A stretch of DNA of 63,249 nt, counting the filler, from Collodictyon triciliatum (lineage: Eukaryota), in the NCBI GenBank assembly GCA_043381765.1. It is 5 parts of 5 records of this genome, joined end to end, with 100 filler letters (N's around TTAATTAATTAA, not from the genome) between each part and the next. Parts side by side here need not be neighbours in the genome. Positions count along the whole stretch, not along the records: positions 16,347 to 32,598 come from JBHJMP010001564.1; 4 more parts are not named here. One strand, written 5' to 3'. Positions within the stretch are counted from its first letter, which is position 1; every line of letters starts with the position of its first letter. The notes under the pieces are model-generated. The model saw nothing but the letters and a program-made list of their open reading frames with translations. It ran no database searches and was not told the origin of the DNA. The translations under genes were made by a program, and so were the position numbers. Positions 16,247-60,289 of the stretch are shown piece after piece.

Positions 16247-16346
16247 NNNNNNNNNNNNNNNNNNNNNNNNNNNNNNNNNNNNNNNNNNNNTTAATTAATT
16301 AANNNNNNNNNNNNNNNNNNNNNNNNNNNNNNNNNNNNNNNNNNNN
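16247..16346. other. Artificial contig linker N44-TTAATTAATTAA-N44
   Basis: Identical 100-nt spacer occurs four times and contains stops in all six frames. Confidence 0.97.
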
Positions 16347-16833
16347 AAAAGAAAATAAAATAAAATAAAATAAAAGAAAAGAAAAGAAAAGGAAAGGAAA
16401 GGAAAGGAAAGGAAAGGAAAGGAAAGGAAAGGAAAGGAAATAAAAGAAAAGAAAAGGAAAGGAAATAAAATAAAATAAAAGAAAAGAAAAGAAAAGAAAA
16501 GAAAAGAAAAGAAAAGAAAAGAAAAGAAAAGAAAAGAAAAGAAAAGAAAAGAAAAGAAAAGAAAAGGGAAAATCAACGACGGAGTTTTTGATCTATTATT
16601 TTTTATACAAAGAAAATATTCAGTAAGAATAATTCATGGCACGGTGCGCTCGAGAAGCCGTACAGATGTTTTCTTTTTTTTTTTTTCTTGTTTTTATTTT
16701 TGTTTTTGTTTTTTTTTTCCCCCCCCCCCCCCCCTTCGTCGTCTCCTTTTAACATTTTGTTCGTCTGTTTTTCCTCTCACTCGTGTTTGCAACATTGCCT
16801 CTAGTAATAATTTAAACCATATCCACTCGACAG

Positions 16834-19800
16834 GGTCCCTGAGTTTGTCCAGGAAAAGCGCTTCCACAACTGGTTGCGTGATGCCCGTGATTGGGCTATC
16901 TCTCGAAACCGTTACTGGGGAACACCAATTCCTATCTGGTCTAATGAAGATGGCTCCGAGGTTTGTGATTTATTTCAAAACTCGTCTCTAAGCAATATGC
17001 ATTTCACACTTATATCTTCAAACCCATGGGCCATTTGTAGATTGTTGTTGTTGGGTCCGTGGAAGAACTTGAGAAGCTGACCGGGAAGCGACCGACAGAT
17101 CTGCACAGAGAATTGTATGGCTATAAATAATCATCATGATTGCACGCATGCTATGGACCACTATGATCAGCATTTTACACATCAGACTCACGCAGCCATC
17201 ACTACCTAGCATCGACGACCTTGTCATCCCCTCGTCAAAGAATCCGGGCACTTTTCTCAAGCGCATTCCTGAAGTCTTTGACTGCTGGTTCGAAAGCGGA
17301 AGGTAAATATACCAAAGCGCAGTTTCTTTTCGGCAGTGATGAAACATCTTCATGAAACGCTTATGCCATGGAAGTGTGCCAAGAATTGATGTGTTGCTCC
17401 GTCATTATGTATATTTTTAACGAGTACATCATTTACTCATAGCATGCCCTATGCGTCTATCCACTATCCCTTTGAGAACAAGGAGCGTTTCTCTGCCATC
17501 TACCCTGCCGACTTTATTGCCGAGGGATTGGATCAAGTATGCATATCTAGTCTACATTCTTATTCATTATCGTAACTTAGGGACATCCTGCTTAGTCATC
17601 AACTTTGTTCACACATCATCTGCACTCAATAATGAAGCCAGATTGGGGAAATATAGCTCTTTTTTTTTTCTTTTTTTTTTTGTGGAAACAATTTCTGTGC
17701 CGCAAGAAGAGGCCACGGAGAAACTCGCTCCATGATTACGTCATAGCAACTCATTAAACTCTTGATTTGATAGACTAGAGGATGGTTCTACACTCTCCTT
17801 GTGTTGTCCACTGCCCTCTTTGACCAGCCACCTTTCAAAAACCTTATTGTAAATGGCCTCGTTTTGGCAGCGTAAGGCGCATTCAATTTCGAAAGATTAA
17901 TTCTGAACAACTCATAGCAAAAGATCACGTCCGAAATGGTATTTGTTACAGACATGTCAATCTTTTATTTATGCTAGCGACGGAAAGAAAATGAGCAAAC
18001 GCCTGAAAAACTACCCTGAACCCACTATTGTGATTGACGAGTACGGTGCAGATGCAATCAGGTGTTTACACTCGATATAGTCACGCATTTAGTAAATGAA
18101 TTGGTGAACTTGAGGACGGATATTAAAGCCTCAAAATCGATGGTTGATGATGGATTGTATCACTCATTTGTTTTGTTGACTGATTTTTGCAGACTCTACC
18201 TCATCAACTCTCCAGTGGTGCGGGCCGAGCCTTTGCGTTTCAAAATCGAAGGTGTCCGTGATGTGGTCAAAGACGTATTCCTACCTTGGTTCAACGCGTA
18301 CCGCTTCTTCATTCAGAACGCCCGCATCCTTGGAAAGGTTGCCATTTCCATACCTTCATCTTGAATCCCCCCTTTTTCTTCAAACTTACAACTTATACAG
18401 CGCTTTGAGATTGGCCCATCGCCTGTCGCCAACTCGACACACGCATATGCCATGAACCACTTTAAATCACATACGTTTGACCACCAACCACAGACCACCG
18501 GGAAGCCCTTTGTCCGAGATGAGGCCCTTGCTTACCAGTCGACAAACATCATGGACCGATGGATCATCGCTGCTACACAAAACCTGATTGCCTACGTGCG
18601 AGAAGAGATGGCTGGTAATATCATTTTTTTCTTCGCTTCTGAGATGATGCACCATAGTCCCTGATCAAAATTTCTATAAAGAATAGAAATAAAAGTAAGC
18701 CGGGTTTTTCGTATTAAAAGCATACTATCATTTAATACATTAGCATATCGCCTGTACACTGTCGTCCCGCGCTTGGTGAAATTCATCGATCAGCTCACCA
18801 ATTGGTACGTACGCTTCAACCGCAAGCGTCTCAAGAATGCCTTTGGAGAGGAGGACTGCCGCGCAGCCACATCCTGCTTGTACGAAGTGTTGTACAGCCT
18901 CTGCTTGCTCATGGTCGGTACTCAAGTCTACCGCAATATTGCATCCTTTGTACCATCTTTTACCCGAGTAATTCAGTACCATGCAAACCCCAGGCACCCT
19001 TCACGCCTTTCTTGGTTGAGATGATGTATCAGAACCTCAAGGTCGCGCTGCCCTCCGACCAACAGCAAGAAAGTACTTTCAAGCACGACCCCTTATTGCC
19101 AATACCGTATATTTATCGAACAATCACAGTCCGAAAATAAAATACCCCATTTTCTTACATCACAGGTGTGCATTTTGGCCTCATTCCAGAGGTCAAAAAA
19201 GAGGCCTTGGATACTCGCATCGAAGAAGCCGTGACTAGAATGCAAAATGTCATTATCATCGGCAGAGCTATCCGCGACCGGAAGACACTTCCATTAAAGG
19301 TGCGCCCAAATACGCTGCAACCACCTTTGATCATCATAACGCTATAATGGCAGATGAATTACTTTTTCCATCCAAAATTGCAATTTCCGTTGTTCATCAC
19401 TCGAAAACTAGATCGTCGACTATGCGCTTATTATTACCTTTTGCTTCTTCCTATACTGATATGCCCTAGACCCCTCTGAGAAGTGTCACAGTCGTGCACA
19501 GAGATGCCACCTATTTGACTGACATCAACAACCTTTCAGTGTATATTAAAGAGGTTTATATACCACAGATGACTTCTTATAATATGCTCTGTCTGCATTA
19601 TCTGGAAACACAAACCCACTTATATTCTACTGGTTTTCCATCCTTCGTTTATACCATTGTATTTTTTTTCCTCTCCGTCGACGAGATAATTGGCGGAAGC
19701 TTTTATATTTTCTTTTTTTTTTAAAAAAAAAAATAAAATAATCGCATCTCATGTAGGAACTGAATGTCCGGGATGTCCACACAACTGCTGATGAGAACAA

Positions 19801-21734
19801 GTTCATCTCCCTAACAGCAGAGACAGATAATAAGGTTTGTAAATAAGGATCTCTAACTTGAAATTGCTTGACAATTCATATATCGCTGTCTTTAGAAGAC
19901 AACGAGTCATGCATGATTCATCCTTAATGTAAGGACTGAGAACAGCATGAAAGGTTGTTTTTTTCTGGCTAAATTCTATAACACAACGCAATACATAAAT
20001 CAGGCTCTTGGTAAGCGCCTTGGCAAAGAGCTGAAAGCAGTGTCCCAAGCTGTTGCAGGTGGCTGTTATTTTTTTCATTCAGGATATCACACGGAACCAT
20101 TACATTCATACATATACAGCACCCAATTGACTGGCTCTTTAGCACTCAGCGCAATCTAATTTGTCTCCTTAGCTCTCACTCACGAGCAGATTGTCGAGTT
20201 CCAGACAACAGGAAGCATCGTCGTTTTGAGTCATACGCTCTCGGCATCAGAAATTAAGGTATTCCATCGTTTCAGTGTATTGTGTCTATGGAAGCTTTCC
20301 GGGTACAATTAGTAGGTGAAACTTATGGAACTTTATGTTCGTGGTGGGCACCAAAGACAATCTTCGATCTCACCACATTGTCACCCGACTCAAGTCTGGA
20401 AATAAATTTAGTTGAATCGCAGCTTCAAGTCTTCCGGAGAGAACTCTAAGCTCGAGTCAGGAACTGGTGATGAGGGTTTGCTTCTACTGCTCGACTGTGA
20501 GCAGGACGCAACACTCCGTGCCGAGGGCATCGCTCGTGACATTGCAAACCGAATCCAGAAGCTCAGAAAGAAGGTTTTGCGATTGCGTCTCTGACTTATC
20601 TCACCCGCACTTCCATCTACCTTTCCTACTTTGCTCGAAGAACTCTTTTGTCTGGTGATTGATTTTGCCAGTTCTGTTGCTGTATCAGATGACCCTATTT
20701 CTCCTCATATTTTGTCCTCATGACACCAAGATATCTTATAACGCAACATGCCCATAACGGAGCGCACTCACACAGGCTGGGCTTAATGTGGAGGACACCA
20801 TCGAAGTATACTTTTCGTACAACAAGGCCCAGAAGAAGGACGGCCACGGAAAGCACCAAGGTTAGAAATGCATTTAAGTCTCTGTCGGAAGCGTGCGAAC
20901 GGCTAGGAAACTATCAGGGCTAGACAAAAAGGACATTTTATGCTTACAGACATCTCCATCCTGCCTATCAACCAGGTGACGAAGAGGACTCCCAAGCAGT
21001 CACGTTCGATGAACTTGTCAGCGTTCTGGCCACGCAAGGCAGCTATGTGCGCACTTTGGTCAACAGCCCGTTCCTCCCAGTCGAAAGGGCTCCGGCCTAT
21101 GGGGTGCGCATCATCTCCGAGAACGTTGAGGTACGTGCACTCATGCGTGGATTCTGTGAACAAACTCCATCTCCCCACGTCGATCATTCTTACTTTGTAG
21201 TTTCTGTCATCGTTATGTACACATTTGGTATTCCCCGGTACAAACATCCAACCAAATACATAACGAATTATGAACTGCCGCAGTATGCAGATGTCGAGTT
21301 GAAGCTAGTGATTGTTCGCTCATGCGTCCACTTCAACGAGGAAGCCATGGCAGAGGTTCTTGGTGCGGTGAGTCTGCTGTTACAAAATGCCCAAAATATG
21401 CCCTAATTATTGGTTTTATCATTATCATTATTATCATGTTCACCTGTTCCATTGAATGTATCACACGCTGGCTGGCGGATTCAGGGCGAGGATGCTACTA
21501 GGCTGCTTGTGTCGGTGAAGGTGATGCTGTCAAACATGGATGTGCGGCGCTTGAAGGCGGCTGCGACAGGTCAGACACAGTCTTTTATCGCTTCCCTTTT
21601 GGCCTGACTCTCACTAACATGTGTGCGCCTCCACAACTGCAGCCAACTCAATCTTTGGCTTCACGCTCGATGGGAAGCAGCTGTCTGTGGAGTTTGGGAA
21701 GCACGTTGCATTCGCCCCGTTCACGACAAACTAA
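16834..21734 (+). CDS. IARS1: Cytosolic isoleucyl-tRNA synthetase, 5'-truncated by the contig edge
   Basis: [91 protein letters not shown]; many GT-AG introns; stop TAA at 21732-21734. Confidence 0.96.
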
Positions 21735-21916
21735 GAGAAGGACAAACGGGACTTGCCCTCTGAAGACAACACAGAAACGAGAAGCAACAAAACAGCAATA
21801 AAGATACCAGTGCCCCGGGAATCCTTGCGCCCTCCCTGGAAGAGCGCGTGTTGTTTTTTGAGATGGTCTCTTCGTGCGCGTGTCTAGGTAGTTTGTCCGC
21901 AGAATGAGTGAATGTT

Positions 21917-25035
<3,119 letters not shown>

Positions 25036-25209
25036 TTATGGCAACGTTTATCGCCGCGTTTTCTATGTCTCCGCAGCGTAAATGGAAAAGATCCGTTAGA
25101 TGAGGGCTGGGGACCCCCTTTGGACTGCGCCAATAATAGGCCCAGCGCCCGTGTTTGGTGGGTTGTGTGGGGGAGGCGTTAGATGGCTCGTGGCATCGTT
25201 AGTGCGGCA

Positions 25210-26389
25210 CTAATAGTCTTCGGGGGGCGTGATGAGGCCCAGGGTTACATCCAGCGGGACGTCTTGGCTAAGGGTTACGCCGGTCTCGGTGGTGAGTCCC
25301 AGGGGCACGCTGTAGCCTTTGTCCACAACACCCTTCAGGTTTGGAGGTTCGTTGAAGAACCCGCTGGGCTTTGGGACGTCAGTTGAGGGAGATATAAAGG
25401 TTGTGCATGAGTGATATCAGATAGCGAGATTGTATTCAAATTTATGCGCAATTTAAACATTTCATATAAGTATAATCAATAAAAAGAATATAAAAAAATC
25501 ATGGATGGTTAAAAAAAGAAAAGAAAATGTGTTATTAGACACAACAAACCTTAAGAGACTCAGTATGGATGCTGAGGACCACTTTTTTGCCATTTGACGT
25601 CGGTATGTCGATATCACATCTAGGTGATATCAGCAATGTCTTGGAATTGGTGGAATGTGAGCCGATCACTGTGTCGCTTAGAAAGCTTTTTTTGTGCAGC
25701 TCAAACTTCGCATTCACACACGTTTCCGATGGCGCCACGAGTCTAACCAGATGCGATATTGTCACCCTTAGTGCATATTCATGAATCTGATTCATAAATC
25801 ACATTCGAGATATTAAAAAACCAGCCTTTTTTTTTTTGAGGAGACAACCTACATTTCGATTTCAGAAAACAAAGGAGCCTTCCCATTTATCGGTCTATGG
25901 ATTGGAACTGATAGACGTTCGGACTCAGTAATGATGGTGATGTACATGTTCGCTAGCATGTGGTTTGGTGGTTATGTTGTTTGCATGAGAAATAATTATA
26001 CCAAATATGTATTGTATCCACATTTGAAATGAAGAGGCTCAGATATATTCACCAAATGAGATAATAGAATCTTTTCTTTGAACATATATATTAATATCTC
26101 TAGTTTACTCTGAAAACACCATGTTTAAAACTCACACATCCATGTTGCTGGTAGCCCAGATATCTCTTCAACTATTTTGTTTTGGAGTTTTAAGGTTTTC
26201 ATTAGTATCAGAATAAAATGGCACGTATATGTACTACAAGAATAATTTATTTCTAATTTATGGAGAAGAGAATGAGAAAGAGAGCCAACAGAAGAAACAG
26301 AAGAAACAGAAGAAACAATGAAAAGTGAAAAGGAAACGTACTAAACACGGGTTTGACTTACGCTTGATTTTGATTCCCTTCTTGCCCAT
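25210..26389 (-). CDS. Small C2-domain-like protein (5 exons)
   Basis: Spliced MGKKGIKIK|LEEISGLPATWM|SNMYITIITE...GKAPLFSEIE|MVTIS...AKFELHKKSFLSDTVIGSHSTNSKTLL...|PSGFFNEPPNL...PPEDY*. The strand pattern resembles a C2 fold, apparently without the full set of Ca-binding Asp residues. Confidence 0.55.
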
Positions 26390-26664
26390 TCTGATAGGAA
26401 CTTGAGGTAGTTAAGCAGCGATAGTGGCCGAGCGGTAAATAAGCTTGAACTTCTCGCCAACAGGCTTAGAGCCGATCTCAACTCGAGCACAGCGAAAGGA
26501 GCCTTCTGTGTGTAACAGCAGGAAGGTTTATTGTTCGTATGCCGCCAGGTGTCAGGGAAATCAGACGAATGACAAATAACGCATGTATTTCTTATTTTGG
26601 ATATGCCAACTAAGGGCGCAGACTGAAGGCTAAAAATGTCAAACCACATAAACAAACCACATAA

Positions 26665-26728
26665 CAAAAACAAAAACAAAAACAAAAACAAAAACAAAAA
26701 CAAAAACAAAAACAAAAACAAAAACAAA
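26665..26728. repeat. (AAAAAC)n repeat
   Basis: Tandem hexamer just downstream of the NLR-like gene. Confidence 0.9.
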
Positions 26729-26809
26729 CCACATAATTGCACAAAAAAGGGGTTTTGACCTGTATGAATATAAGAACGATTCATTTATCGAGAAATTGAT
26801 GGAGGGAGC

Positions 26810-29800
26810 TCATTTCAATGTTTCTGACACACCAGCACAACTGTCCAATTCGCTGGCCTTTTCCAGGTCAACATTTACGCCCAAACCATCTCGATAAAAG
26901 CGAGCTAAAGCCGCACACCCCGAAGGGTGGCTAAGGCTGACAGATTTTTCGTACCATAAGCGTGCATTTTCGAGGCTTTTCTCCACACCCGCCCCTTCTT
27001 CAAAGCATTGGCCGAGGTTGAACATCGCTTCCGCATCACTATTTTCTGCGGCCTCCGTGTATAGTCGGACAGCTTCTTGTGCATCCATTTCAATCCCTTT
27101 TCCTTCACGAAGACAGTGAGCGAGATTAACCCTTGCGTCATTATCTCCCCCTTTGACTGCCTCGCGGTACCAATAGACCGCCTGGCTAGCATCCGCATCC
27201 ACACCGGTTCCATTTTCATAGCAGGCACCAAGGTTCACTTGAGCGTCAGTGTGCCCATTTGTAGCTGCTGGAAGGAGCCAATGGATAGCATTTGCACAGT
27301 CAAGAGCTACACCAACCCCATTCAGCAGACACATGGAATACCTGTATTGAGCCACAACATGACCACATTTAGCGGCGTGGAGGTAAAACTCAGCGGCCTT
27401 TTCAAGGAAATTGTCTTGGCCGCTACTCATCCCACAGTATAAATCCGCAAGAGCCACAGAGGCGTCCAAACTACCAGAGTCAGCTGCTCGTTGGTACCAT
27501 CTGATAGACTCTGGTATATTTATTTTCTGAAATTTTTCATCAGAGTAATAATCTCCCAATGCCATCTGGGCGTCAACATCACCAAGCTTTGCAGCAGACA
27601 GGAAGAAAGACAAGGCCAAATCCCTGTCAATGGAAACTCCAAGACCTTTCATATAGACCATACCAAGACGAAACTGAGCCGATGCATCTCCTTTGTTAGC
27701 GGCTTGTTCGTACCAATAGATAGCACGGGAGCATGATTGCTCAATTCCAAATCCAACTTCATAGCAAAACGCTAAGCGAATCTGGGAGGGGGGATAGCCT
27801 TTAGATGCAGATAGCTGGTACCAGAGCGATGCTTTTTCCGGATTCTTATTTACAACAGTTCCCGACTCATAAATTAATCCTATCTCGTGTTGCGACTTCA
27901 GGTCACCTTTGACTGCTTGTATTTCTTTCCAGTGGAGCTCACAGCGACCGTGAATAGCCTCAGCCTCAATGTTCATTTCTTCAATCATTTCTATGTGTTG
28001 TTTGTCTAGATCTCGTAGCCCAGTTATGTTCACCATCTGATTATTGACAAACATTCCTTGTCTCTTTGAGGTCCATTTCATGCACAAATTCAATTTTGAG
28101 GAATCAACGTCTCTGCATAAATCATAGCATTCCACTCTTCCTGATATGTCAACAATTAAAATAGATGCGTTATCATCCAAAACTTTCAACAGCTGTACTT
28201 GTTTGAAAGGCAATTTGTACTTGTTTGAAACATCATCGCTACACACTTCCCAAAATCCCAATTGACCATCACTGTCTAAGGTAAGTAAAACATACGACTC
28301 ATCACAAAGCTTACACAAATTGACTGACAAAAGACGACTCATTTTCAAATGCCCTTTTTTAAGGAGGGCAAAATCTCTGATTCTCCATCTCTGTATTATA
28401 CCATTGGCCTCCACGGAAGTAAGGACGGATTCGTTCCCGAATGACGAAATAAACGGAATGAGAAATATATCCAATATCGGAGAATTTCCACCTTTGTAAG
28501 AGAATATCATATCCTGAGACTCTAAATTCCAAACATACACGAACCCATTGCTGGATCCGGCAATAATCATAGAATCGTCTCCAGGGTCATTTGTATGTGA
28601 TTTTATTGCTACGATTCTAGCATGTCGATCTCCACTGGAGAGTTTCTTTATCTCCAATCCTGATTCCAGCTTAACAATTGCAATATTGGTATGGTCGAGG
28701 CCAAAAGCTATTCCAGTGGCATCTTTAGATAATTTAACCGGAGACGCGCAGTAAACAAAGCCATATTTTCGATTAATCCAAACTTCATCTGTGTTCACGA
28801 CCGTCCAAAGACGAGTAGAGCCATCTTCGCTAGAGGATAATATTAAAGGTAAAGAATTTTGAACCTGAACGATGCAAAGCAGCTTCGGTGCATGAGAATG
28901 TCCAATTAATTTTCTTATCTGCTTTCCATCCGATGCCTGCCATAAACAAATTGTGCAGTCTTGTTCTGAAGTGACAAAGTATTGATGCTCGTCATGGCAG
29001 AATGAAGCGATGCAAACCACTCTTCCCTCGTAAATATTAACATTATTATCATCAGAAAGATATGAGACGGAAGACATCCTTGCAAATCCTCCAATAGATG
29101 AGACCACAATAAAGATTTCACCTTGGAATAAAAATGAGTATATTTGCGTTGGCACGAAATCGTTAAACCTATACTCGTATAGATAATCCGATTGATTCAG
29201 ATTGTAAACACATACGGTATTGTCTTGATAGAGAGCTGTCACCAGATTATCATCCGTTTTGGTACTTACAACGGGCTTTAAGAGTTTGATTGCCACATGT
29301 TTATTTTTTAAACGCTTATGAATGGTCCATGTTTTGACATCCCATACAATAATAGAGCCATCTTCACAGCCGGCGAGGAGATAATGATTTCTGTTTTGAG
29401 TGGGCTGGGATTCTATGAGCAAAATTTTTGAGGTTGTCTGCAAAATTTTCTTTTTCGCAAAAGAGGTCAGCTGGTGGATGCACAGGGTATTTGAGGATTC
29501 GCATGTGACAAACAGACACAGCTCGAAATTATCTGAATTTTCAATAAAATGGTACAACATCGTCTTATCCATGTTAAAGGTATGCTCTGCACAAATCTCA
29601 AGCGAGTTCCATTCGAAAATGCGAACAACAGAATCATATGTAGCTACTATAATTTTACTCAATAACTTCATACTGTCCATATACAGATGGACGAAATATA
29701 TAGGCGATGTAAGTGTAATCACTTCTGTCATGTGAAAGTTATCTGTATTAAGTAAAAACAACGTCCCACCTGATGTACCAACCAAGACTATATCTCTAGA

Positions 29801-32419
29801 GTCTTGAGTAATTCGATGGCACACATAAGTGCATATATCATCTTGCGGTATATCTAAAGACTTTATTAATTTTGTATCAAGTAGAGCCCATATGGTTATC
29901 CTTGATCCTCCAATCATAATGAATGATGTCTGGTCTGCTAGTAACTGCATATAAATGATAATGTCTCTGTGGTAGAACGTGTGAGGAAATCCAAAAGAAG
30001 AGTTTGATAGATTGGCACCAGAAAAATTGCAGTTTTTGATGATAGAGTCGCTAAATTTTGAATTTTCGAAGGTGCTATTACTTAGATCGGAATGATCAAA
30101 AACCGAATTTGAGAGATCGGCACCACAAATACGAATATTAGAGAGATCTATATTTCTAAAATGTTTGCCTGCATAGTTCAAAATTGTAAGGCTGTGAGAG
30201 GCTAATAGAGTTGCGTTGTAAGATTGGTTGTATTTAGCATTTCTGATGTGGGTCCACAAAGCGTGCTCCACGCTTGGATTGTTTTGGGCATGATACGCCA
30301 TCATTTTTAAAAACTCTTTATTTGTAGACATGTCACATTCAGAAAGCAATGATTTCTGCATAGATGAACCATTTGAATACCTTTGATGCTCTATGAGAAT
30401 GTTGGTGCCCTTCAAATATGATAGTAATTGAGGTGATATAACTTCGCCTGTAAGGAGTTTGATTTCAAGTAATGATGCAAAATAATTCATGAATAGAATG
30501 CTTGTAAATGCAAAGTGATGACGACTATGGGCCTCCAGCAAGTTTGTGCGTCGAAGAATTCGAGGTTTGTTTTTTGCAAAAGTAAGGAATCGTTCCCAAT
30601 CGTTGTTAGTGTCATAAATGTTTCTATTTCTTGATTTGTAAAAAGCTACGCGAGTCCTTCTCATCATCATTTGGTGAGCGAATGCAATATAATAGGGAAA
30701 GAAATCATCGGTGGTAATTTCAGATCCAGCTCTGGATTGAGATAGAATCGAATCTGACAAGATTTTTTCAAGATGCTGCTCGAAGGTATTCACAATGTAA
30801 GAACTAAGAATACTATAAGGTTGGATAGTTTTAAGAGGCACTGGACTAAGTTCATGACTAGATTCAAAGACCATCGGAAGCGTGGAGAGAATCATTTTCA
30901 AAAAGAGTGGATTGGAGCAACAATCCTGCAAATCGACAAAGCGGTTGATGCAATGGAGATATTCAGCTGATGATATCCATTTGCTTTGGCTTTCTTCAGT
31001 ATCGATGTGTTTATCGACAAACAGTTCAATTTGTGCGGGTGTAAGAGGTGCAATAAAGACTTCAAGGAAACTGTGTTTCTTCTTGCTTTGATACGATGAA
31101 TGAATTTCGGGTGATTTCATACCAGATGGTACCTCCTCGGGGATCTCGATGTCTTGATAAGGAGAAAAAAGTTGCTGATAAGGTGTTTTCGATCCGTGAA
31201 TGTAGGAGTCGCAAAGAATGACTGTCTTTGCTTTCCATAATTCGAGGTTGTTTTCACGGTATAAGTTTTTATACGTGTCCAAACGATCGTACCCATCCAT
31301 AACGAAAACAAATTGGAAATTCTGTCGCATGAAGTTAATCTCTTCTGTAGTAAAAGAAATCGATTCGACAAAAACTGAAGAGTCGAGAGCATGGGGCCCT
31401 CCATGAAAAAATGAAGATGATAGCCTTTCGATCACAAGATTTTGATACGGATCAGATACCCCTGTCAGTGGAATGAATAATGGTATTGGATACTTCTCAT
31501 CCCATGTTTTCCATAGGTAACGAACAAGGTTAATTCCCAAGGTAGACTTGCCTGACCCAGATGCTCCAAATATGACGATAATAGGAGAGGAATTCTTTTC
31601 CATATTCTCGATGAGGTGGTCATTGATATCAAAGAAATGTGTAGAATGCGGCGTGTTTCTTCCGAGTAAAGGAACATACCGGAGAAATTGATTTTGTGTA
31701 GATTCGCAGTCTAGGAAGTTTTCTTTCATTTTGATTACCTTTTCCATGACTTTTGACTGCAGAATAGCATCAATGCTTTGAGGAGAGTGCGTCGGTAAGT
31801 TTGCAATTTCCATTATCTCAAATTCACCATTAGCATGATTGGAGGGATTATCTTGATCATTTTGTCCCTCGTCGTCATCTGACGCCCACGGAGACCCCGT
31901 CTCCAATGGGGGAGACCCTGGAATTGAGGATAGTGCGGATATTGTGCGGTGAAGGAAGGCTCGAGATTTTGGCATGGCTGCTTCTGGTGAGGAGGCAACT
32001 TGTGAATCCGTTGCAAGTGGTGGTGACAAAGGGTGGATGCTTAGGTCTGTACTCCCATGACGATGAGGGCGGTTGCCATGTTGTGTAATGGGTGTGAGAA
32101 CTCCACTTTGTGATATTGACGACGAGCTTTTTCTTTGAGATGAGTCTTGGTCTATATGATCTCTCGCAACTTTAGTGTTGTTGGACTCAATAGGGCGGGC
32201 AAAGTCTGTGCCACCATCGTTTGGAGCCTCTTTGCATGAGCATTGACCACCACCCAACAGCAAAGGATTAAGTTGGACGTAAACAAGCCCAGTTTGATCG
32301 CGACGGACTCGCCACCCTTGATCGTTGGGTATTGTCGAAGGATTTGAGAAAGGATAGTCAGGTGATAAAATGAAAAGGGTTCCTGGTGGCTCCAGTGACC
32401 AAAGAGCAGTCTCGTCCAT
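26810..32419 (-). CDS. Intronless NLR-like STAND protein: NACHT, pentapeptide repeats, WD40 propeller(s), 10 Sel1-like repeats (~1870 aa)
   Basis: Single uninterrupted ORF (first ATG at 32419). P-loop GASGSGKST, Walker B VFVMDGYD, SNPLFL, SLTILNYAGKHFRNIDLSNIRICGADLSNSVFDHSDLS (pentapeptide), WD repeats (LLAGCEDGSIIVWDV, LSSSEDGSTRLWTV), ten ~36-aa Sel1 repeats (e.g. AQVNLGACYENGTGVDADASQAVYWYREA). Confidence 0.92.
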   Translation of the reverse strand: MDETALWSLEPPGTLFILSPDYPFSNPSTIPNDQGWRVRRDQTGLVYVQLNPLLLGGGQCSCKEAPNDGGTDFARPIESNNTKVARDHIDQDSSQRKSSSSISQSGVLTPITQHGNRPHRHGSTDLSIHPLSPPLATDSQVASSPEAAMPKSRAFLHRTISALSSIPGSPPLETGSPWASDDDEGQNDQDNPSNHANGEFEIMEIANLPTHSPQSIDAILQSKVMEKVIKMKENFLDCESTQNQFLRYVPLLGRNTPHSTHFFDINDHLIENMEKNSSPIIVIFGASGSGKSTLGINLVRYLWKTWDEKYPIPLFIPLTGVSDPYQNLVIERLSSSFFHGGPHALDSSVFVESISFTTEEINFMRQNFQFVFVMDGYDRLDTYKNLYRENNLELWKAKTVILCDSYIHGSKTPYQQLFSPYQDIEIPEEVPSGMKSPEIHSSYQSKKKHSFLEVFIAPLTPAQIELFVDKHIDTEESQSKWISSAEYLHCINRFVDLQDCCSNPLFLKMILSTLPMVFESSHELSPVPLKTIQPYSILSSYIVNTFEQHLEKILSDSILSQSRAGSEITTDDFFPYYIAFAHQMMMRRTRVAFYKSRNRNIYDTNNDWERFLTFAKNKPRILRRTNLLEAHSRHHFAFTSILFMNYFASLLEIKLLTGEVISPQLLSYLKGTNILIEHQRYSNGSSMQKSLLSECDMSTNKEFLKMMAYHAQNNPSVEHALWTHIRNAKYNQSYNATLLASHSLTILNYAGKHFRNIDLSNIRICGADLSNSVFDHSDLSNSTFENSKFSDSIIKNCNFSGANLSNSSFGFPHTFYHRDIIIYMQLLADQTSFIMIGGSRITIWALLDTKLIKSLDIPQDDICTYVCHRITQDSRDIVLVGTSGGTLFLLNTDNFHMTEVITLTSPIYFVHLYMDSMKLLSKIIVATYDSVVRIFEWNSLEICAEHTFNMDKTMLYHFIENSDNFELCLFVTCESSNTLCIHQLTSFAKKKILQTTSKILLIESQPTQNRNHYLLAGCEDGSIIVWDVKTWTIHKRLKNKHVAIKLLKPVVSTKTDDNLVTALYQDNTVCVYNLNQSDYLYEYRFNDFVPTQIYSFLFQGEIFIVVSSIGGFARMSSVSYLSDDNNVNIYEGRVVCIASFCHDEHQYFVTSEQDCTICLWQASDGKQIRKLIGHSHAPKLLCIVQVQNSLPLILSSSEDGSTRLWTVVNTDEVWINRKYGFVYCASPVKLSKDATGIAFGLDHTNIAIVKLESGLEIKKLSSGDRHARIVAIKSHTNDPGDDSMIIAGSSNGFVYVWNLESQDMIFSYKGGNSPILDIFLIPFISSFGNESVLTSVEANGIIQRWRIRDFALLKKGHLKMSRLLSVNLCKLCDESYVLLTLDSDGQLGFWEVCSDDVSNKYKLPFKQVQLLKVLDDNASILIVDISGRVECYDLCRDVDSSKLNLCMKWTSKRQGMFVNNQMVNITGLRDLDKQHIEMIEEMNIEAEAIHGRCELHWKEIQAVKGDLKSQHEIGLIYESGTVVNKNPEKASLWYQLSASKGYPPSQIRLAFCYEVGFGIEQSCSRAIYWYEQAANKGDASAQFRLGMVYMKGLGVSIDRDLALSFFLSAAKLGDVDAQMALGDYYSDEKFQKINIPESIRWYQRAADSGSLDASVALADLYCGMSSGQDNFLEKAAEFYLHAAKCGHVVAQYRYSMCLLNGVGVALDCANAIHWLLPAATNGHTDAQVNLGACYENGTGVDADASQAVYWYREAVKGGDNDARVNLAHCLREGKGIEMDAQEAVRLYTEAAENSDAEAMFNLGQCFEEGAGVEKSLENARLWYEKSVSLSHPSGCAALARFYRDGLGVNVDLEKASELDSCAGVSETLK

Positions 32420-32598
32420 GGTGTTACGCCCTTCTGGCAAATGATCAGGTCACGCTTATAGTAGATATCAAAAGTAACTCATAGCAAGGTCAAAAAGGCC
32501 TTAATTGGTTTTTTGTTTTTTTTGTTTTTTTGGTTTTTTGGTTTTTTGGTTTTTTGTTTTTTTTTGTTTTTTTTGTTTTTTTGTTTTTTTGTTTTTTT

Positions 32599-32698
32599 NN
32601 NNNNNNNNNNNNNNNNNNNNNNNNNNNNNNNNNNNNNNNNNNTTAATTAATTAANNNNNNNNNNNNNNNNNNNNNNNNNNNNNNNNNNNNNNNNNNNN
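32599..32698. other. Artificial contig linker
   Basis: N44-TTAATTAATTAA-N44. Confidence 0.97.
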
Positions 32699-33092
32699 CC
32701 CCCCACTATAAAGGAAAAAATAAAATAAAAGGCGGGAGAAAAAGAAAAAAAAACAAAAACAAAAAAAAAAAAAAAAAAAAAAAAAGACGATGAAAGCAGA
32801 CCCAATGCAGGAAGTGCAGGCGCAAGGAAAAAAAAAAGACCTGCCTCTCTGAAACACACACACACACTCTTACACAAACAGCCAACACCGTCCATGTCAC
32901 AACACACGTGAAATGATATGCAGATGACACTTACGATTCTCGAACGAACGAACGAACCACGCTATCTCCCCTCTCTCCCATCCTCTCACTTCCTCTAATC
33001 CCCTGTACACCGCCATACGCCACCTCGTATCTGACCCAATCCTGTGTGCCGCTGCCATCGCGGCCGCAAACGACTCTCCCGTTCGCCTGTAG

Positions 33093-33846
33093 ATGTGAAG
33101 GACATCAAGTACGTCATCAACTACGACTTCCCCAGGGACCTGGAGAACTACGTCCATCGCATCGGGCGCACAGGCCGAGGCGGCGCCACGGGTGTGGCCT
33201 ACTCGTTCTTCTTCGAGAAGGACTCCCGCCTGGGCCAGGGCCTCGTTGACATCCTGCGCGAAGCCGAGCAGCCGGTGCCGGAATCCCGTGAGTTCCAAAA
33301 CCTCATTCACCCACCCGACAGTGTAAACAACGTACATATGCGTACTGTACTGCATGAGCATTGACAACAACTCACACTCACACATTCATGCATGCATGCA
33401 CACAGTCCTGCGAAGGGTCGAAGAATGCAGACACAGTAAGCGCCTCCCTTTCTCCTCGCCTCGCCTCCTCCTTCCATGACACACTTCGATACATACGTAA
33501 CACATACATATACACATACATATAAACCGCCCTGAACAACCACACCCCAGCAGGCTCGTCCAGCGGAGGGCGGCGATCCTCATACAGCTCGGGTGGCGGC
33601 CGATACGGCGGCTCGTCCTACCAAAATAGAAGCTCCTACTCGGGCTACTCGCACTCGGGACAGTACTCGAATTCTCACTCGCACACCTACGCAGACCCGA
33701 CTGCCCAGTACCCCGACTCCACAGCAGCCTACTACACGCAGCCGTACACCGCCTCGTCCTCTGCCCATGACGCAGCCTTCTACGGGGCAGCCTCCTACGG
33801 GATGCGCACCCGCAACTCGGCCGGGTCCTACTCCGGCCCCAACTAG
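33093..33846 (+). CDS. DEAD-box helicase, DDX5/DBP2-like, C-terminal exons only
   Basis: [40 protein letters not shown] (motif [10 protein letters not shown]), [13 protein letters not shown], then a G/S/Y-rich tail ending TAG at 33844-33846. Confidence 0.85.
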
Positions 33847-40100: not shown

Positions 40101-41744
40101 GAGGGAAAGTCTTATTCAGCAAAAGCAATTCATATTCACAACTTAAAATATCAAGGAAAAAACAAACCTGCAAGCATGTAAGTATGCGTTGCCCTCCAGA
40201 TGATAGGGCGGAACTTTAAGACAGATATAAACCGAGCTAGATTTTGTATTTCGTGGCGAGGATACCTGATGTTGAGGTGATAATAAATATATAAATATTT
40301 GGGACTTATTGTACTGAACCTTGTACTATATTTCTTTTGTTCAATTTTATTTTAGATCCATGTAGGAAATAAGAAGATTTCTTGATAGAAAAATTTCTTC
40401 TATTTTAAATATTTTCATCATACTGCCCGTGGATGAGACCGGATAAATAGAATAATTTGGCTCCTTGGTAGATTTCAGTCCAGAATCTTTTTTTGAGCAG
40501 CTTCTTCGTTCTTCTCAATTTTTTATTTTCCTGGTGAAAACAAAACGTGATAATAAGTATTTGTAAGGTCAAAAGTTTGATATTAAAGTAAGAAGTCTAA
40601 TGGATAGTTAATCTCCCTGAAACTCCTTAAGCGATAGCAAATGTTATTATGTCATATGTGGACCTTAAACATGTCAAGGTGAGTCAAAACACCCATCACT
40701 CGAGGAAATCCGTGGGTTTGCAAGATATTTAAAAATTCAAAGGTTTCCTGCAATCAAAGTAAATTACATATTTAAATCGGAGCGTCGTGCATTTTACGTT
40801 GAAAATATATATCTTGTAAGTTGAAAAAGATTGAGTAAGAATCCGACAAACCATTTCGAATCCAAAGCTAGCATCGACCAGTAACAACACTAGATCTGCC
40901 ACTTTTCCGACATCAAGCATGGCGTTGATATCATTTGGGCATTCGATAAAAGTGATACGCCTCCCCTTACCTTACAAATTTAAATAATGTGCTCAATATT
41001 TCAGGAAAACATGGATTCTTAAATTGTTGCTTATTCTCTCAGGGGGAAAAAAAAAACAGAGTATGATGCGCATCTTGTGAAATGAGGGGTTTATCTAAAC
41101 CTGAAACAACTGTTATTGGGCCTTTGATATTTTGAATATTTTGCTTCGTATACTTCTTAACTAACGATCTGATTAACGTGCTTTTACCAACCTAAGCGAA
41201 ACGTGAAATCGAAAAAAAAACAACTTCAGTGTCATATATCTATAAACTAATTCAAAAATCAAATTGATGGTTATCAAATCGAATGAATACAATTTATAAA
41301 TGGAAGTCTCATCGATGGAGCAAAGTATCATGACAATCAATGCTTTAAAGTCATACAGATGAATCATAGACGATGATAATAGACACAAAAACATAACACA
41401 ACACAACACAACACAAACATAAAAGTATGTATTTTATGGAGCACCTTTGGCGGACCGACAATAGCAACCAGAATGGGTGGCGGGACAACGGCAAGTGAAC
41501 CGGAGTCCTTTATGGGCACATGCAGACGCTTCACTTCACGCTCGGCAGAGCGCTGAATCTGCTTGAGAGAGTTGCGACCAGACATCGGGGCAAAGGCCTT
41601 TGGGTTTTTGCCTTTCTGCGGCTGCATGCCGCTTTTCTCCATCTTCTTTTTCTTCTTGCGGTCTGCTTTCCGGCCAGACAGCCGCGGCCGATGCGGAGTG
41701 GGCGCTTGAGCGGCAGACAGGTTCACGTTTTCTGACTTGCCCAT
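34102..41744 (-). CDS. BMS1: Ribosome biogenesis GTPase BMS1
   Basis: [82 protein letters not shown], acidic middle region, [65 protein letters not shown]. Confidence 0.96.
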
Positions 41745-44718: not shown

Positions 44719-46932
<2,214 letters not shown>

Positions 46933-47850
46933 TCGTCATGATAATGGGGTGGTTTCCTTTCTTCTTTCAAGTAGACAATGGCAATGTTAATGGCTGGGAT
47001 GGGAGAAAAGGAGGTGCTGAAGCCAAAAGGGTATGAGAAACAGTGTCCTCCTTTTTGAAGAGAAACAGAAAGTATTGGATAACTTCTCTCACAATAACCG
47101 ACCACTGGATGTAATGAAGCATGGTCACCAAATAAATTATCGGAATACTCTTGTGTTCCCTCGCAGATTATCCTCGTCAGAGTGAAAGGAGCTTTACGTT
47201 TTGTGTGTATTGATGACATGGCTTACTTACCAACAATTCACCTCCTTTTCGATCTTGGCTCGGATGGTTGATCAGATCTATCACAACTTCGCCACACTGA
47301 AACTCATAAGCTTTTTCTTTGGATAACGTTCCCGACGTACGGACACGACAAACGATGTGTTCCCAAAGAAAAAACATCGCTTGTGGAAATGATAATCGAA
47401 AATCAATTTTGGTCATGGTTTTCTTGTGTCGGCCCATGAAACTCGTTAAGTGAGCTAGGAACTTCCTTGGAAGAAAAATATCAAAGTGGTCTCTACTCAG
47501 GCTCGTTGCAAAGCCATCACATATGTCGCGTGTACCTGATTTAGTGAGGCTTCGCGCACATTCTGCCCTATGTCGAAGCGCGCCTGTCAGGTGTATCCAA
47601 GAACCGAACAACCATCACCACACTGATGAAACTCATTAGAACATAAAGATTCTAACCGGCATATGTACGAAAAAAGACGCAACAACTTTGTTAGACTGAA
47701 GAATGATAAATAAATGCATATTCTTGAATCGAATACAAGAATAAAACCGATTTATTTACATAGTTAATTTTCATGGCCCAGTAATTTGTGAAAACAAGTT
47801 CATCCTACGTTCTTCTCATTTCTTTACAGGGAAATCACAGCAAACAAATC

Positions 47851-48911: not shown

Positions 48912-49011
48912 NNNNNNNNNNNNNNNNNNNNNNNNNNNNNNNNNNNNNNNNNNNNTTAATTAATTAANNNNNNNNNNNNNNNNNNNNNNNNNNNNNNNNN
49001 NNNNNNNNNNN
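48912..49011. other. Artificial contig linker
   Basis: N44-TTAATTAATTAA-N44, flanked by (AAAAAACAC)n and poly-T. Confidence 0.97.
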
Positions 49012-49363: not shown

Positions 49364-59017
<9,654 letters not shown>

Positions 59018-60189: not shown

Positions 60190-60289
60190 NNNNNNNNNNN
60201 NNNNNNNNNNNNNNNNNNNNNNNNNNNNNNNNNTTAATTAATTAANNNNNNNNNNNNNNNNNNNNNNNNNNNNNNNNNNNNNNNNNNNN
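60190..60289. other. Artificial contig linker
   Basis: N44-TTAATTAATTAA-N44, preceded by (CAAA)n. Confidence 0.97.

What the first reader, a model, noticed from the sequence alone, without database searches (positions are those of the whole stretch)
26810..32419. Intronless NLR-like receptor with a four-part NACHT-pentapeptide-WD40-Sel1 architecture
Seen: a 5.6-kb intron-free ORF in a genome whose other large genes have an intron every ~100-300 nt. Known: the NACHT + AxxxITILxxAG-pentapeptide + WD40 layout, with NLYxxNxL..W.AK after Walker B, is as I recall the signature of the STAND family expanded in Mortierellomycota fungi, their Mycoavidus endosymbionts and ciliates. That family normally ends shortly after an L-x-W-x-S...I-x-GL motif. 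Here the motif is present (LCMKWTSKR...NITGL) but is followed by ten Sel1-like repeats, giving two different repeat sensor modules in tandem. Inference: a horizontally acquired or retroposed innate-immune or symbiont-sensing NLR with a fused second sensor or integrated domain, possibly an undescribed protist NLR class.
Basis: partly seen in the sequence, partly recalled or inferred. Interest (0 to 1): 0.8.

Follow-up and report, generated by a model that had tools for sequence, protein, structure and literature searches.

The report
Intronless protist NACHT-WD40-Sel1 receptor-like gene
An intron-rich freshwater protist carries one large intron-free gene of a known bacterial and fungal NLR-like family, with an added Sel1 repeat tail and three near-invariant nucleotide-handling residues replaced, so it is an unusual variant rather than a new class.

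Summary
Minus strand 26810-32419 is one open 1869-codon frame (chance about 1e-51; the other five frames have 84-132 stops). It lies on the same contig as an intron-split TIP49 gene.

The domain order is N-terminal S/P-rich region, NACHT, pentapeptide repeats, about 14 WD40 blades, the family's C-terminal cap motif, then ten Sel1 repeats.

It belongs to the published NACHT-PPR-WD40 family of Mortierellomycota and Mycoavidus. I also found that family in Chlamydiae, Gammaproteobacteria and Myxococcota MAGs and in the Diphylleia rotans transcriptome. The best relative is only 28% identical.

The Sel1 tail was not found on any relative examined. However, 21 of 88 relatives with the cap carry tails of 151 residues or more (TPR, HEAT+ankyrin and others), so a second repeat module is a recurring theme.

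New here:
- Composition and codon use match the host, so it is a long-resident gene, not contamination.
- It alone among 158 relatives has lost the Walker-B glutamate, the sensor-1 arginine and the WHD histidine together. Its WD40 array is not homogenised.

I read it as an old, diverged NLR-like scaffold or sensor with an impaired nucleotide switch. Origin (transfer or retroposition) is unresolved, and immune function is untested. It is a new variant of a known kind, of moderate interest.

The parts
26810..32419 (-). Whole intron-free ORF, 1869 aa plus stop (stop codon 26810-26812). The ATG at 32419 sits in an ACACCATGG context.
   Evidence: The window holds a single copy (tblastn).
31733..32419 (-). 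N-terminal region, aa 1-229. It is S/P-rich (31 S, 23 P) with no recognisable domain, and is probably disordered. No effector domain was identified.
   Evidence: No Pfam hit in this part. 0 of 154 relatives match it. Best Atlas score is 0.82, which is chance level. Composition.
30215..31732 (-). NACHT-type NOD module (NBD plus helical and winged-helix domains), aa 230-735.
   Evidence: phmmer best E 2.9e-47; 1846 cluster representatives at E<=1e-3. Pfam NACHT 20.8 bits, below cut-off. AF2 and Foldseek top hits are NOD2 5irn (1.2e-10), NLRC4 4kxf and NLRP3.
31541..31567 (-). Walker A, GASGSGKST (aa 285-293), intact.
   Evidence: In the family, G290 and K291 are present in 157 of 157 and S292 in 138 of 157.
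31283..31312 (-). Walker B, FVFVMDGYDR (aa 370-379). D375 and D378 are kept, but the following glutamate is R379.
   Evidence: The family has E in 153 of 157 and R in 0 of 157.
31226..31267 (-). Family signature NLYRENNLELWKAK (aa 385-398).
   Evidence: N156, N161 and W166 are invariant in A1; W166 is invariant and N161 nearly invariant in A2.
31205..31216 (-). Sensor-1 position, LCDS (aa 402-405). The family arginine is D404.
   Evidence: The family has R in 156 of 158 and D in 0 of 158.
30479..30514 (-). Winged-helix motif FAFTSILFMNYF (aa 636-647). The family histidine is S640.
   Evidence: The family has H in 153 of 157 and S in 0 of 157. MAFFT alignment A2 gives the same column.
29975..30214 (-). 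Linker motif ASHSLTILNYAG (aa 740-751) and pentapeptide-repeat beta-helix (aa ~754-810).
   Evidence: Pfam Pentapeptide 29.4 bits, cut-off 20.2. 140 of 154 relatives match this piece. pLDDT is above 90 in the model.
28094..29974 (-). Divergent WD40 region (aa 816-1442), about 13-14 blades and probably two seven-bladed propellers. There is no repeat homogenisation at DNA level.
   Evidence: Pfam WD40 44.1 bits. The AF2 model is all-beta with 54 strands, at low confidence (pLDDT 63.1, pTM 0.43). TRF finds 0 repeats, against 126-bp arrays in relatives.
28016..28093 (-). Family C-terminal cap motif LNLCMKWTSKRQGMFVNNQMVNITGL (aa 1443-1468).
   Evidence: The cap HMM built from 22 relatives hits here at domain E 9e-4. 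Position.
26813..27895 (-). Ten Sel1-like repeats (aa 1509-1869), with units starting at aa 1509, 1543, 1579, 1615, 1651, 1688, 1724, 1760, 1796 and 1833. A ~40-aa linker (aa 1469-1508, 27896-28015) precedes them.
   Evidence: Pfam Sel1 211.7 bits, 8 stretches. Unit starts. GC is 0.479 against 0.376-0.385 for the NACHT and penta+WD parts.
16347..32598 (.). The contig that carries the ORF, bounded by two artificial 100-bp spacers. It also holds an intron-split TIP49 gene (21917-24605, minus) and a tRNA-ligase piece (18680-19024, plus).
   Evidence: Spacers. Neighbouring genes.

Best explanation
**What it is.** This is a resident nuclear gene of an intron-rich freshwater protist. The protist's SMC2 is closest to that of the CRuMs flagellate Diphylleia rotans, but the two are not the same organism.

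The gene encodes a highly diverged member of the NACHT-pentapeptide-WD40 STAND (NLR-like) family. At some point it read through or fused past the family's C-terminal cap into a ten-unit Sel1 solenoid.

**How canonical members should work (inferred from solved NACHT NLRs).** The repeat region holds the ADP-bound NOD module closed. Ligand binding then allows nucleotide exchange and oligomerisation.

**How this protein differs.** The P-loop is intact, but three residues are replaced: the glutamate after Walker B, the sensor-1 arginine and the winged-helix histidine. By established knowledge these serve hydrolysis and the ADP lock. There is also no recognisable N-terminal effector domain.

**My inference.** It may still bind nucleotide but no longer cycles. 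It would then act as a large protein-binding platform (two WD40 propellers plus a Sel1 solenoid). That could be a non-enzymatic sensor, adaptor or decoy working with other factors, not a self-sufficient switch.

**Shown:** the ORF, the domain order, family membership, host-like composition, the residue losses and the absence of repeat homogenisation.

**Inferred:** the loss of cycling, the scaffold role and any link to immunity or symbionts.
For: - **ORF.** Real and far beyond chance.
- **Linkage.** It shares a contig with the intron-split TIP49 gene.
- **Composition.** ORF GC 0.412 and GC3 0.390, against SMC2 exons at 0.409 and 0.405. RSCU r = 0.74.
- **Independent sequence.** Freshwater metagenome contigs from several studies carry pieces at 97-100% identity.
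- **Family.** 1846 cluster representatives at E<=1e-3, best 2.9e-47. Signature motifs are conserved.
- **Pfam domains.** Pentapeptide, WD40 and Sel1 score above their cut-offs.
- **NACHT fold.** pLDDT 79.6; NOD2, NLRC4 and NLRP3 are the top hits.
- **Residue losses.** E->R379 (0 of 157 share it), R->D404 (0 of 158), H->S640 (0 of 157). 148 of 158 relatives keep all three and none loses all three.
- **WD40 array.** The ORF has 0 DNA tandem repeats. Mycoavidus L003 has 10.8 copies of 126 bp at 88%.
- **Tails.** A tail after the cap recurs in the family (21 of 88 at 151 aa or more; TPR, HEAT+Ank).
- **Expressed canonical paralogue.** A canonical member sits in the Diphylleia rotans transcriptome (P0007).
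Against: - There is no expression evidence. No listed run is on record as RNA. One run guessed to be RNA holds two short contigs.
- Variants in metagenome contigs show no purifying selection: 5 synonymous to 9 non-synonymous, against 21% expected synonymous, p = 0.16. Power is low and the contigs are of low depth.
- The very long branch and the lost residues would also fit a gene drifting out of function.
- The roles of the three residues rest on knowledge of other NACHT proteins, not on a test here.
- The WD40 model is of low confidence (pLDDT 63.1).
- The host genome was not available, so copy number and intron status of paralogues are unknown.
Confidence: 0.6

Rival explanations
1. It is an active innate-immune or symbiont-sensing NLR in which the Sel1 solenoid is an integrated second sensor or decoy. 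On this view it still switches by nucleotide exchange, and the N-terminal region signals through an unrecognised motif.
For: - The NOD-plus-repeat architecture is complete and Walker A is intact.
- Relatives are concentrated in bacteria that live in or on eukaryotes and in their fungal hosts. The literature interprets them as NLRs.
- STAND proteins with Sel1 sensors exist. P0206 combines nSTAND1 with C-terminal Sel1. An NB-plus-Sel1-like fusion is reported in Klebsormidium (PMC7145615, passage read).
Against: - It uniquely lacks the Walker-B Glu, the sensor-1 Arg and the WHD His.
- No effector domain is recognisable.
- The WD40 repeats show no sign of the rapid repeat turnover seen in relatives.
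- The window holds a single copy.
- There are no expression data.
Confidence: 0.2
2. It is a decaying relic: a once-functional transferred or retroposed NLR gene that is drifting, with the frame still open only because decay is recent.
For: - It has the longest or second-longest end branch in both trees (1.83 and 2.21).
- Three near-invariant residues are lost.
- Pfam scores for NACHT and WD40 are weak.
- The 5:9 synonymous to non-synonymous variants do not differ from neutrality.
Against: - 1869 codons without a stop, while the other frames have 84-132 stops.
- At about 25-28% identity to every relative, the divergence is old. Neutral drift over that span would have closed the frame.
- The Sel1 repeats score strongly (211.7 bits).
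- Codon use tracks host genes.
Confidence: 0.12
3. It is bacterial contamination, a mis-assembly, or a recent transfer from a bacterium or giant virus.
For: - The ORF is intron-free.
- The family is dominated by bacteria: 149 relatives in the genome-contig scan, and 63 of the 74 loci kept are Mycoavidus.
- The contig ends 179 bp upstream of the ATG.
Against: - The same uninterrupted contig carries the intron-split TIP49 gene.
- GC, GC3 and RSCU match host exons.
- Host-type A/C-rich microsatellites flank both ends.
- No relative exceeds 28% identity.
- In IMG/VR, 591 stretches matched a pattern and none encodes a relative.
Confidence: 0.03

Closest known systems
NACHT-PPR-WD40 NOD-like receptors of Mortierellomycota and their Mycoavidus cysteinexigens endosymbionts (10.1101/2021.12.02.471044 = PMC11291939, passages read)
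   Same: The NACHT module is homologous (E down to 2.9e-47). The NLYxxNxLxxWxAK and AANAITIL signatures, the pentapeptide linker, the WD40 array and the C-terminal cap motif are shared.
   Different: - A 100*-supported branch separates that clade from the 62-row group holding the window protein.
- Identity is at most 28%.
- The window protein has no long helical N-terminal domain.
- It has lost three near-invariant nucleotide-handling residues.
- Its WD40 repeats are not homogenised.
- It carries a Sel1 tail.
Bacterial members with a second repeat module after the WD40 cap: P0015 = L002 (Gammaproteobacteria MAG) and P0146 = L053 (Myxococcales), both with TPR tails, and P0033 (source unnamed; identical to none of the 19 loci in the tree) with a HEAT+ankyrin tail
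   Same: The domain order is the same: NACHT, pentapeptide, WD40, cap, then an alpha-solenoid repeat tail of about 450-590 aa. They fall in the same 62-row subfamily.
   Different: Their tails are TPR or HEAT/Ank, not Sel1. Local phmmer with the window's Sel1 part hit only 2 of 154 relatives, weakly. The two named ones are bacterial. The six named relatives checked by eye, L002 and L053 among them, keep all three residues.
Diphylleia rotans transcript-derived protein P0007 (EukProt EP00002, 1907 aa)
   Same: It comes from the nearest named relative of the host lineage, has the same NACHT-pentapeptide-WD40 order, and is present in a transcriptome. A sister relation to the window protein is not rejected: the constrained tree is 6.58 lnL units better, p-AU 0.642.
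   Different: - Identity is only 21-22%.
- P0007 keeps the canonical DGYDE, R and H residues.
- It has a ~650-aa N-terminal region.
- It ends soon after the WD40 region, with no Sel1.
- Both are long branches, so the grouping may be an artefact.
Animal NACHT NLRs (NOD2, NLRC4, NLRP3)
   Same: The NBD-HD1-WHD-HD2 fold of the NOD module is shared. The top 50 Foldseek hits listed are all NACHT NLRs, for example 5irn at 1.2e-10 and 4kxf at 1.5e-10.
   Different: Sequence identity is 9-14%. The sensors are LRRs, not pentapeptide, WD40 and Sel1. The animal proteins have CARD or PYD effector domains. The ADP-contacting His and sensor-1 Arg of those proteins (recalled from the structural literature) are absent here.
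Other STAND proteins with Sel1 repeats (P0206 nSTAND1+Sel1; P0157 and P0168 Sel1+NACHT+TIR; Klebsormidium NB plus Sel1-like fusion, PMC7145615)
   Same: A STAND NTPase is combined with a Sel1 solenoid.
   Different: None of the 88 long Sel1 proteins matches the NACHT-pentapeptide family HMM, even at E<=10. In P0157, P0168 and P0180 the Sel1 block is N-terminal. None has pentapeptide plus WD40.

Membership tests
NACHT-PPR-WD40 STAND family (Mortierellomycota/Mycoavidus type) | NACHT NOD module homologous to family members | tested here: met
   phmmer best E 2.9e-47, with 594 representatives at E<=1e-10. 153 of 154 relatives are hit by the NACHT piece. The fold matches NOD2, NLRC4 and NLRP3.
NACHT-PPR-WD40 STAND family (Mortierellomycota/Mycoavidus type) | Signature NLYxxNxLxxWxAK after Walker B, and AANAITIL before the pentapeptide repeats | tested here: met
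   NLYRENNLELWKAK at aa 385-398 and ASHSLTILNYAG at aa 740-751. The key columns are invariant or nearly invariant in A1 and A2.
NACHT-PPR-WD40 STAND family (Mortierellomycota/Mycoavidus type) | Pentapeptide-repeat linker followed by a WD40 array | tested here: met
   Pentapeptide 29.4 bits (cut-off 20.2) and WD40 44.1 bits (cut-off 27). The AF2 model is all-beta with 54 strands, at low confidence.
NACHT-PPR-WD40 STAND family (Mortierellomycota/Mycoavidus type) | C-terminal cap LxWxS...IxGL close to the protein's end | tested here: inconclusive
   The motif is present (cap HMM domain E 9e-4), but 395 residues follow the HMM match. 52 of the 88 relatives with the cap end within 57 aa.
NACHT-PPR-WD40 STAND family (Mortierellomycota/Mycoavidus type) | Near-invariant nucleotide-handling residues (Walker-B DE, sensor-1 R, WHD H) | tested here: not met
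   R379, D404 and S640, each shared by none of the 157-158 relatives. 148 of 158 relatives keep all three. I therefore file it as a divergent, probably switch-impaired member, not a typical one.
Functional NLR (innate-immune STAND receptor) | N-terminal effector or signalling domain | tested here: not met
   aa 1-229 has no Pfam hit, no match in 154 relatives and a best Atlas score of 0.82, which is chance level. An unrecognised short motif cannot be excluded.
Functional NLR (innate-immune STAND receptor) | Nucleotide-dependent switching and oligomerisation; response to non-self | not testable with these tools
   This needs biochemistry and challenge experiments. The sequence argues against normal cycling.
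Sel1-like repeat (SLR) proteins, Pfam PF08238 | Tandem ~36-aa Sel1 units | tested here: met
   211.7 bits (cut-off 30.7), 8 stretches. Ten units by spacing.
Horizontally transferred gene (bacterium to eukaryote) | Nested with support inside a donor clade | tested here: inconclusive
   It falls in the bacteria-dominated 62-row side (support 100), but in an unresolved polytomy on a 2.21 branch. Pairing with the eukaryotic P0007 is not rejected. Most rows are unlabelled.
Horizontally transferred gene (bacterium to eukaryote) | Foreign composition or codon use (recent transfer) | tested here: not met
   GC, GC3 and RSCU match host SMC2 exons.
Retroposed (processed) gene copy | 3' poly(A) remnant and flanking target-site duplication; intron-bearing parent gene | tested here: not met
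   The 3' flank on the gene strand is a (TTTTTG)n microsatellite, not poly(A). No flanking direct repeat was found. The parent gene could not be sought because no genome is held. Old events lose these marks.

The most novel reading that the evidence does not exclude
A deep-branching CRuMs-lineage protist keeps a bacterial-type NACHT-pentapeptide-WD40 gene that entered long ago through exchange between eukaryotes and bacteria that live inside them. The protein has since been turned into a pseudo-NTPase NLR. Its nucleotide switch is disabled, and a dual WD40+Sel1 platform works as a decoy or adaptor. For example, it might trap Sel1-binding or WD40-binding factors of ingested or resident bacteria, alongside canonical paralogues such as the one expressed in Diphylleia. 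That would be the first NLR-like pseudo-enzyme with two unrelated repeat sensors described outside animals, plants and fungi.
Probability: 0.15. Interest if true: 0.65.

Novelty: new variant of a known kind. Interest (0 to 1): 0.42.

Why it matters
NLR-like STAND proteins of protists are barely described. This gene extends the published Mortierellomycota/Mycoavidus NACHT-PPR-WD40 family in two directions. One is a CRuMs-related protist. The other, through the relatives found here, is a set of Chlamydiae, Gammaproteobacteria and Myxococcota genomes. That widens the network in which eukaryotes and bacteria share this family.

It also gives a natural example of an NLR-type protein that keeps its full scaffold while losing the residues of the nucleotide switch and gaining a second repeat module. 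Such a case is useful for asking which parts of the NLR architecture are needed for non-catalytic roles.

It does not open a long-standing question. Domain shuffling at the C-terminus of this family turns out to be common.

Tried and rejected
- **Whole-genome search for paralogues.** No genome is held for this window, so copy number and intron status genome-wide could not be tested.
- **Metagenome scan for orthologues carrying the WD40-to-Sel1 junction.** Whether the four-part architecture exists in environmental relatives is untested.
- **RNA evidence.** No RNA holder is listed. One run guessed to be RNA holds two contigs of 228 and 248 nt in the Sel1 part. Parts of the ORF without metagenome cover mean nothing.
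- **Profile search of PDB with A1.** WD40 columns swamped the result, so it said nothing about NACHT. An AF2 model plus Foldseek replaced it.
- **Pfam on full-length relatives to read their tails.** The lists were filled with WD40 families, so the tails were scanned alone.
- **PADLOC and NCBIfam.** Only weak P-loop, pentapeptide and Sel1-type hits, all below cut-offs.
- **Viral origin.** In IMG/VR, 591 stretches matched a pattern and none encodes a relative.
- **Terminal inverted repeats.** The 87-nt inverted match flanking the ORF is an A/C-rich microsatellite of the kind found at every contig end, so it is not taken as a mobile-element end.
- **Selection from natural variants.** 5 synonymous to 9 non-synonymous, p = 0.16, inconclusive.
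None of the named relatives is a ciliate, and one literature search with one paper checked (irrelevant) found nothing.
- **Literature on Diphylleia and NACHT.** One search gave one irrelevant paper.
- **Supplementary files.** These were closed. The xenologue tables of 10.1101/2021.12.02.471044 might list further taxa or intron data.
Full report
**1. The observation**

The minus strand between 26810 and 32419 is one open frame of 1869 codons from its first ATG. From the base composition of the coding strand, a stop is expected every ~16.5 codons. The chance of 1869 open codons is about 10^-50.7, and the other five frames carry 84-132 stops.

The rest of the window is eukaryotic and intron-rich.
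- Only 15 ORFs of 150 aa or more are listed in 63,249 bases, several of them N-run artefacts. No tRNA gene is found.
- An SMC2 gene is recovered as 22 tblastn pieces between 49364 and 59011.
- A TIP49/RuvB-like gene is split into at least four pieces between 21917 and 24605.

**2. Physical context**

The window is not one continuous sequence. Four identical 100-bp spacers ([44N]TTAATTAATTAA[44N]) lie at 16247, 32599, 48912 and 60190, each inside an A/C-rich microsatellite.

The ORF's contig is 16347-32598. It contains the intron-split TIP49 gene on the same strand and a tRNA-ligase piece. The ORF is therefore physically linked to ordinary host genes on its 3' side.

Only 179 bp lie between its ATG and the contig end, so linkage to the helicase gene beyond the spacer is not shown.

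Several lines support a resident gene:
- ORF GC is 0.412 and GC3 0.390, close to SMC2 exons at 0.409 and 0.405. RSCU correlates at r = 0.74.
- Contigs from freshwater metagenomes of several studies carry pieces of the ORF at 97-100% identity.
- In IMG/VR, 591 stretches matched a pattern and none encodes a relative.

Contamination, mis-assembly and recent transfer are thus unlikely.

**3. The host**

Among the 23 full-length SMC2 proteins returned, the EukProt Diphylleia rotans protein stands out. It gives 1619 summed bits in 22 pieces at 60.7% identity, against at most 997 bits for the others. The host is therefore related to that CRuMs flagellate but is not the same organism. This rests on one gene.

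**4. Anatomy**

- **Pfam.** Sel1 scores 211.7 bits (8 stretches), WD40 44.1 bits and Pentapeptide 29.4 bits, all above their cut-offs. NACHT reaches only 20.8 bits against a 26.7 cut-off.
- **NACHT via relatives and fold.** All 19 bacterial relatives aligned with the window piece (A2) match Pfam NACHT and Pentapeptide at E <= 0.001, as does the window piece itself. An AF2 model of aa 230-810 built on that alignment (pLDDT 79.6, pTM 0.80) finds NOD2, NLRC4 and NLRP3 as its best PDB matches (E about 1e-10). Every listed hit among the first 50 is a NACHT NLR.
- **WD40 region.** It models as all-beta with 54 strands, about 13-14 blades, at low confidence (pLDDT 63.1).
- **Sel1 region.** Ten Sel1 units start every ~36 residues from aa 1509 to 1833.
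- **N-terminus.** The first 229 residues are S/P-rich and match nothing.

**5. The family**

A full HMMER scan with aa 230-830 finds 1846 cluster representatives at E<=1e-3 and 594 at E<=1e-10. The best is 28% identical.

Named relatives are:
- Mortierella, Modicella, Linnemannia and Entomortierella proteins;
- a Mycoavidus cysteinexigens 'NACHT domain-containing protein';
- a Diphylleia rotans transcript product.

In prokaryote genomes, 149 relatives were confirmed. Of the 74 loci kept, 63 are Mycoavidus MAGs. The other 11 come from a Chlamydiae MAG (the best match), three Gammaproteobacteria MAGs (six copies on one 112-kb contig) and two Myxococcota genomes.

[quoted passage not shown] See also PMC9815663 (passage read). 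The ciliate part is not.

**6. The tail**

A cap-motif HMM finds the motif in 88 of 154 relatives. Of these, 52 end within 57 aa, 15 within 61-131 aa, and 21 have tails of 151 aa or more.

Four such tails were scanned alone:
- TPR: P0015, identical to the Gammaproteobacteria locus L002;
- TPR: P0146, identical to the Myxococcales locus L053;
- HEAT plus ankyrin: P0033;
- an unrecognised duplicated domain: P0047.

A second repeat module after the WD40 array is thus a recurring feature of one subfamily.

A Sel1 tail was not found:
- Only 2 of the 154 relatives examined (of the 1846 representatives) give weak matches to the window's Sel1 part, and one of them is labelled a TPR protein.
- Among 88 long Sel1 proteins, none has the NACHT + pentapeptide + WD40 combination, and none matches the family HMM even at E<=10.

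STAND-plus-Sel1 combinations of other kinds do exist (P0206, P0157, P0168; Klebsormidium NB-SLR, PMC7145615).

**7. What is peculiar to this protein**

Aligned to 158 relatives, Walker A is intact. Three near-invariant residues are replaced by residues that no relative has:
- the glutamate after Walker B (E in 153 of 157) is R379;
- the sensor-1 arginine (R in 156 of 158) is D404;
- the winged-helix histidine (H in 153 of 157) is S640.

148 relatives keep all three, 8 lack one, 2 lack two and none lacks all three.

By established knowledge of NACHT and other STAND NTPases (recalled, not tested here), these residues serve hydrolysis, gamma-phosphate sensing and the ADP lock.

The WD40 arrays of bacterial relatives are 126-bp DNA tandem repeats: 10.8 copies at 88% in Mycoavidus and 66-80% in the Chlamydiae MAG. 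The window ORF has no tandem repeat at all.

The protein also has one of the longest branches in both trees.

**8. Origin**

In FastTree (159 rows) and IQ-TREE (69 rows), a fully supported branch separates the Mortierellomycota/Mycoavidus clade from a 62-row group. That group holds the window protein, the Chlamydiae, Gammaproteobacteria and Myxococcota sequences, the Diphylleia protein and all the tailed members.

Inside that group the window protein is unresolved. Forcing it together with the Diphylleia protein gives a tree 6.58 log-likelihood units better than the free search, with p-AU 0.642. Both are long branches, so this shows only that a shared eukaryotic origin is not excluded.

There is no poly(A) remnant, no target-site duplication and no foreign composition. 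The event, whether transfer or retroposition, is old, and its direction is open.

**9. Reading**

The best-supported account is a long-resident, highly diverged member of the NACHT-PPR-WD40 family. It acquired a Sel1 solenoid past the family's cap and lost the residues of the nucleotide switch.

I infer a non-cycling, protein-binding platform (a sensor, adaptor or decoy), not a self-sufficient NLR switch (confidence 0.6).

The rivals are:
- an active dual-sensor immune NLR (0.2);
- a decaying relic (0.12). The open frame and the strong Sel1 repeats argue against it. The variant data are uninformative (5 synonymous to 9 non-synonymous, p = 0.16);
- contamination or recent transfer (0.03).

**10. 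Verdict**

This is a new variant of a known kind.

It adds three things:
- a CRuMs-related protist, plus several bacterial phyla, to the range of a published family;
- a Sel1 version of the family's C-terminal add-ons;
- a natural switch-impaired form.

Interest is moderate.

Noticed in passing
window 16247-16346, 32599-32698, 48912-49011, 60190-60289; also 8802-9617: Four identical 100-bp spacers ([44N]TTAATTAATTAA[44N], a six-frame stop linker) join separate contigs. Every break sits in an A/C-rich microsatellite. There is also an 816-N gap. Gene order across the spacers is not evidence of linkage.
   Followed up: yes
window 49364-59011 (+): An SMC2 gene recovered in at least 22 tblastn pieces. 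It is much closer to the EukProt Diphylleia rotans SMC2 (1619 summed bits, 60.7% identity) than to 22 other full-length SMC2 proteins (at most 997 bits). This places the host near that CRuMs flagellate.
   Followed up: partly
window 21917-24605 (-), 18680-19024 (+), 33035-33364 (+): An intron-split TIP49/RuvB-like gene (Pfam TIP49 pieces at profile positions 59-109, 184-238 and 281-320, plus TIP49_C), a tRNA-ligase anticodon-binding piece, and a Helicase_C piece of a DEAD-box-like gene.
   Followed up: partly
window 12938-13561 (-), 46390-46935 (-), 40729-40971 (-): By eye only: a cysteine-rich exon resembling the CXC region of EZH2-type methyltransferases, a leucine-rich-repeat exon, and a BMS1-like GTPase piece. 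Pfam gave no hit at E<=0.001 for the first and third; the LRR exon was not scanned.
   Followed up: partly
window 26650-26736 and 32501-32587: The ORF is flanked by A-rich microsatellites in inverted orientation (87 nt, 74% complementary). The same kind of repeat ends every contig, so it is probably a genome-wide feature and not a pair of mobile-element ends.
   Followed up: partly
L002, L011, L016, L047, L062, L073 (one 112,366-bp Gammaproteobacteria MAG contig): Six paralogues of the NACHT-pentapeptide-WD40 family lie in tandem between about 21.8 and 92.5 kb of one contig. They form one clade with support 100*.
   Followed up: no
P0003, P0005, P0006, P0047 (unlabelled metagenomic relatives): Their C-termini end in CaaX-like tetrapeptides (CVIM, CLIM, CLVM, CVVQ). 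From recalled knowledge of Legionella effectors, this would fit prenylation by a eukaryotic host.
   Followed up: no
L003 7734-9095; L001 7630-9082: The WD40 arrays of bacterial relatives are 126-bp DNA tandem repeats: 10.8 copies at 88% in Mycoavidus and 66-80% in the Chlamydiae MAG. They are therefore homogenised or recently expanded repeat arrays.
   Followed up: partly
P0008 (best hit, 1610 aa): It seems to hold two NACHT-pentapeptide modules in tandem (family HMM at 111-623, phmmer at 654-1158). It groups with Mycoavidus P0053.
   Followed up: no
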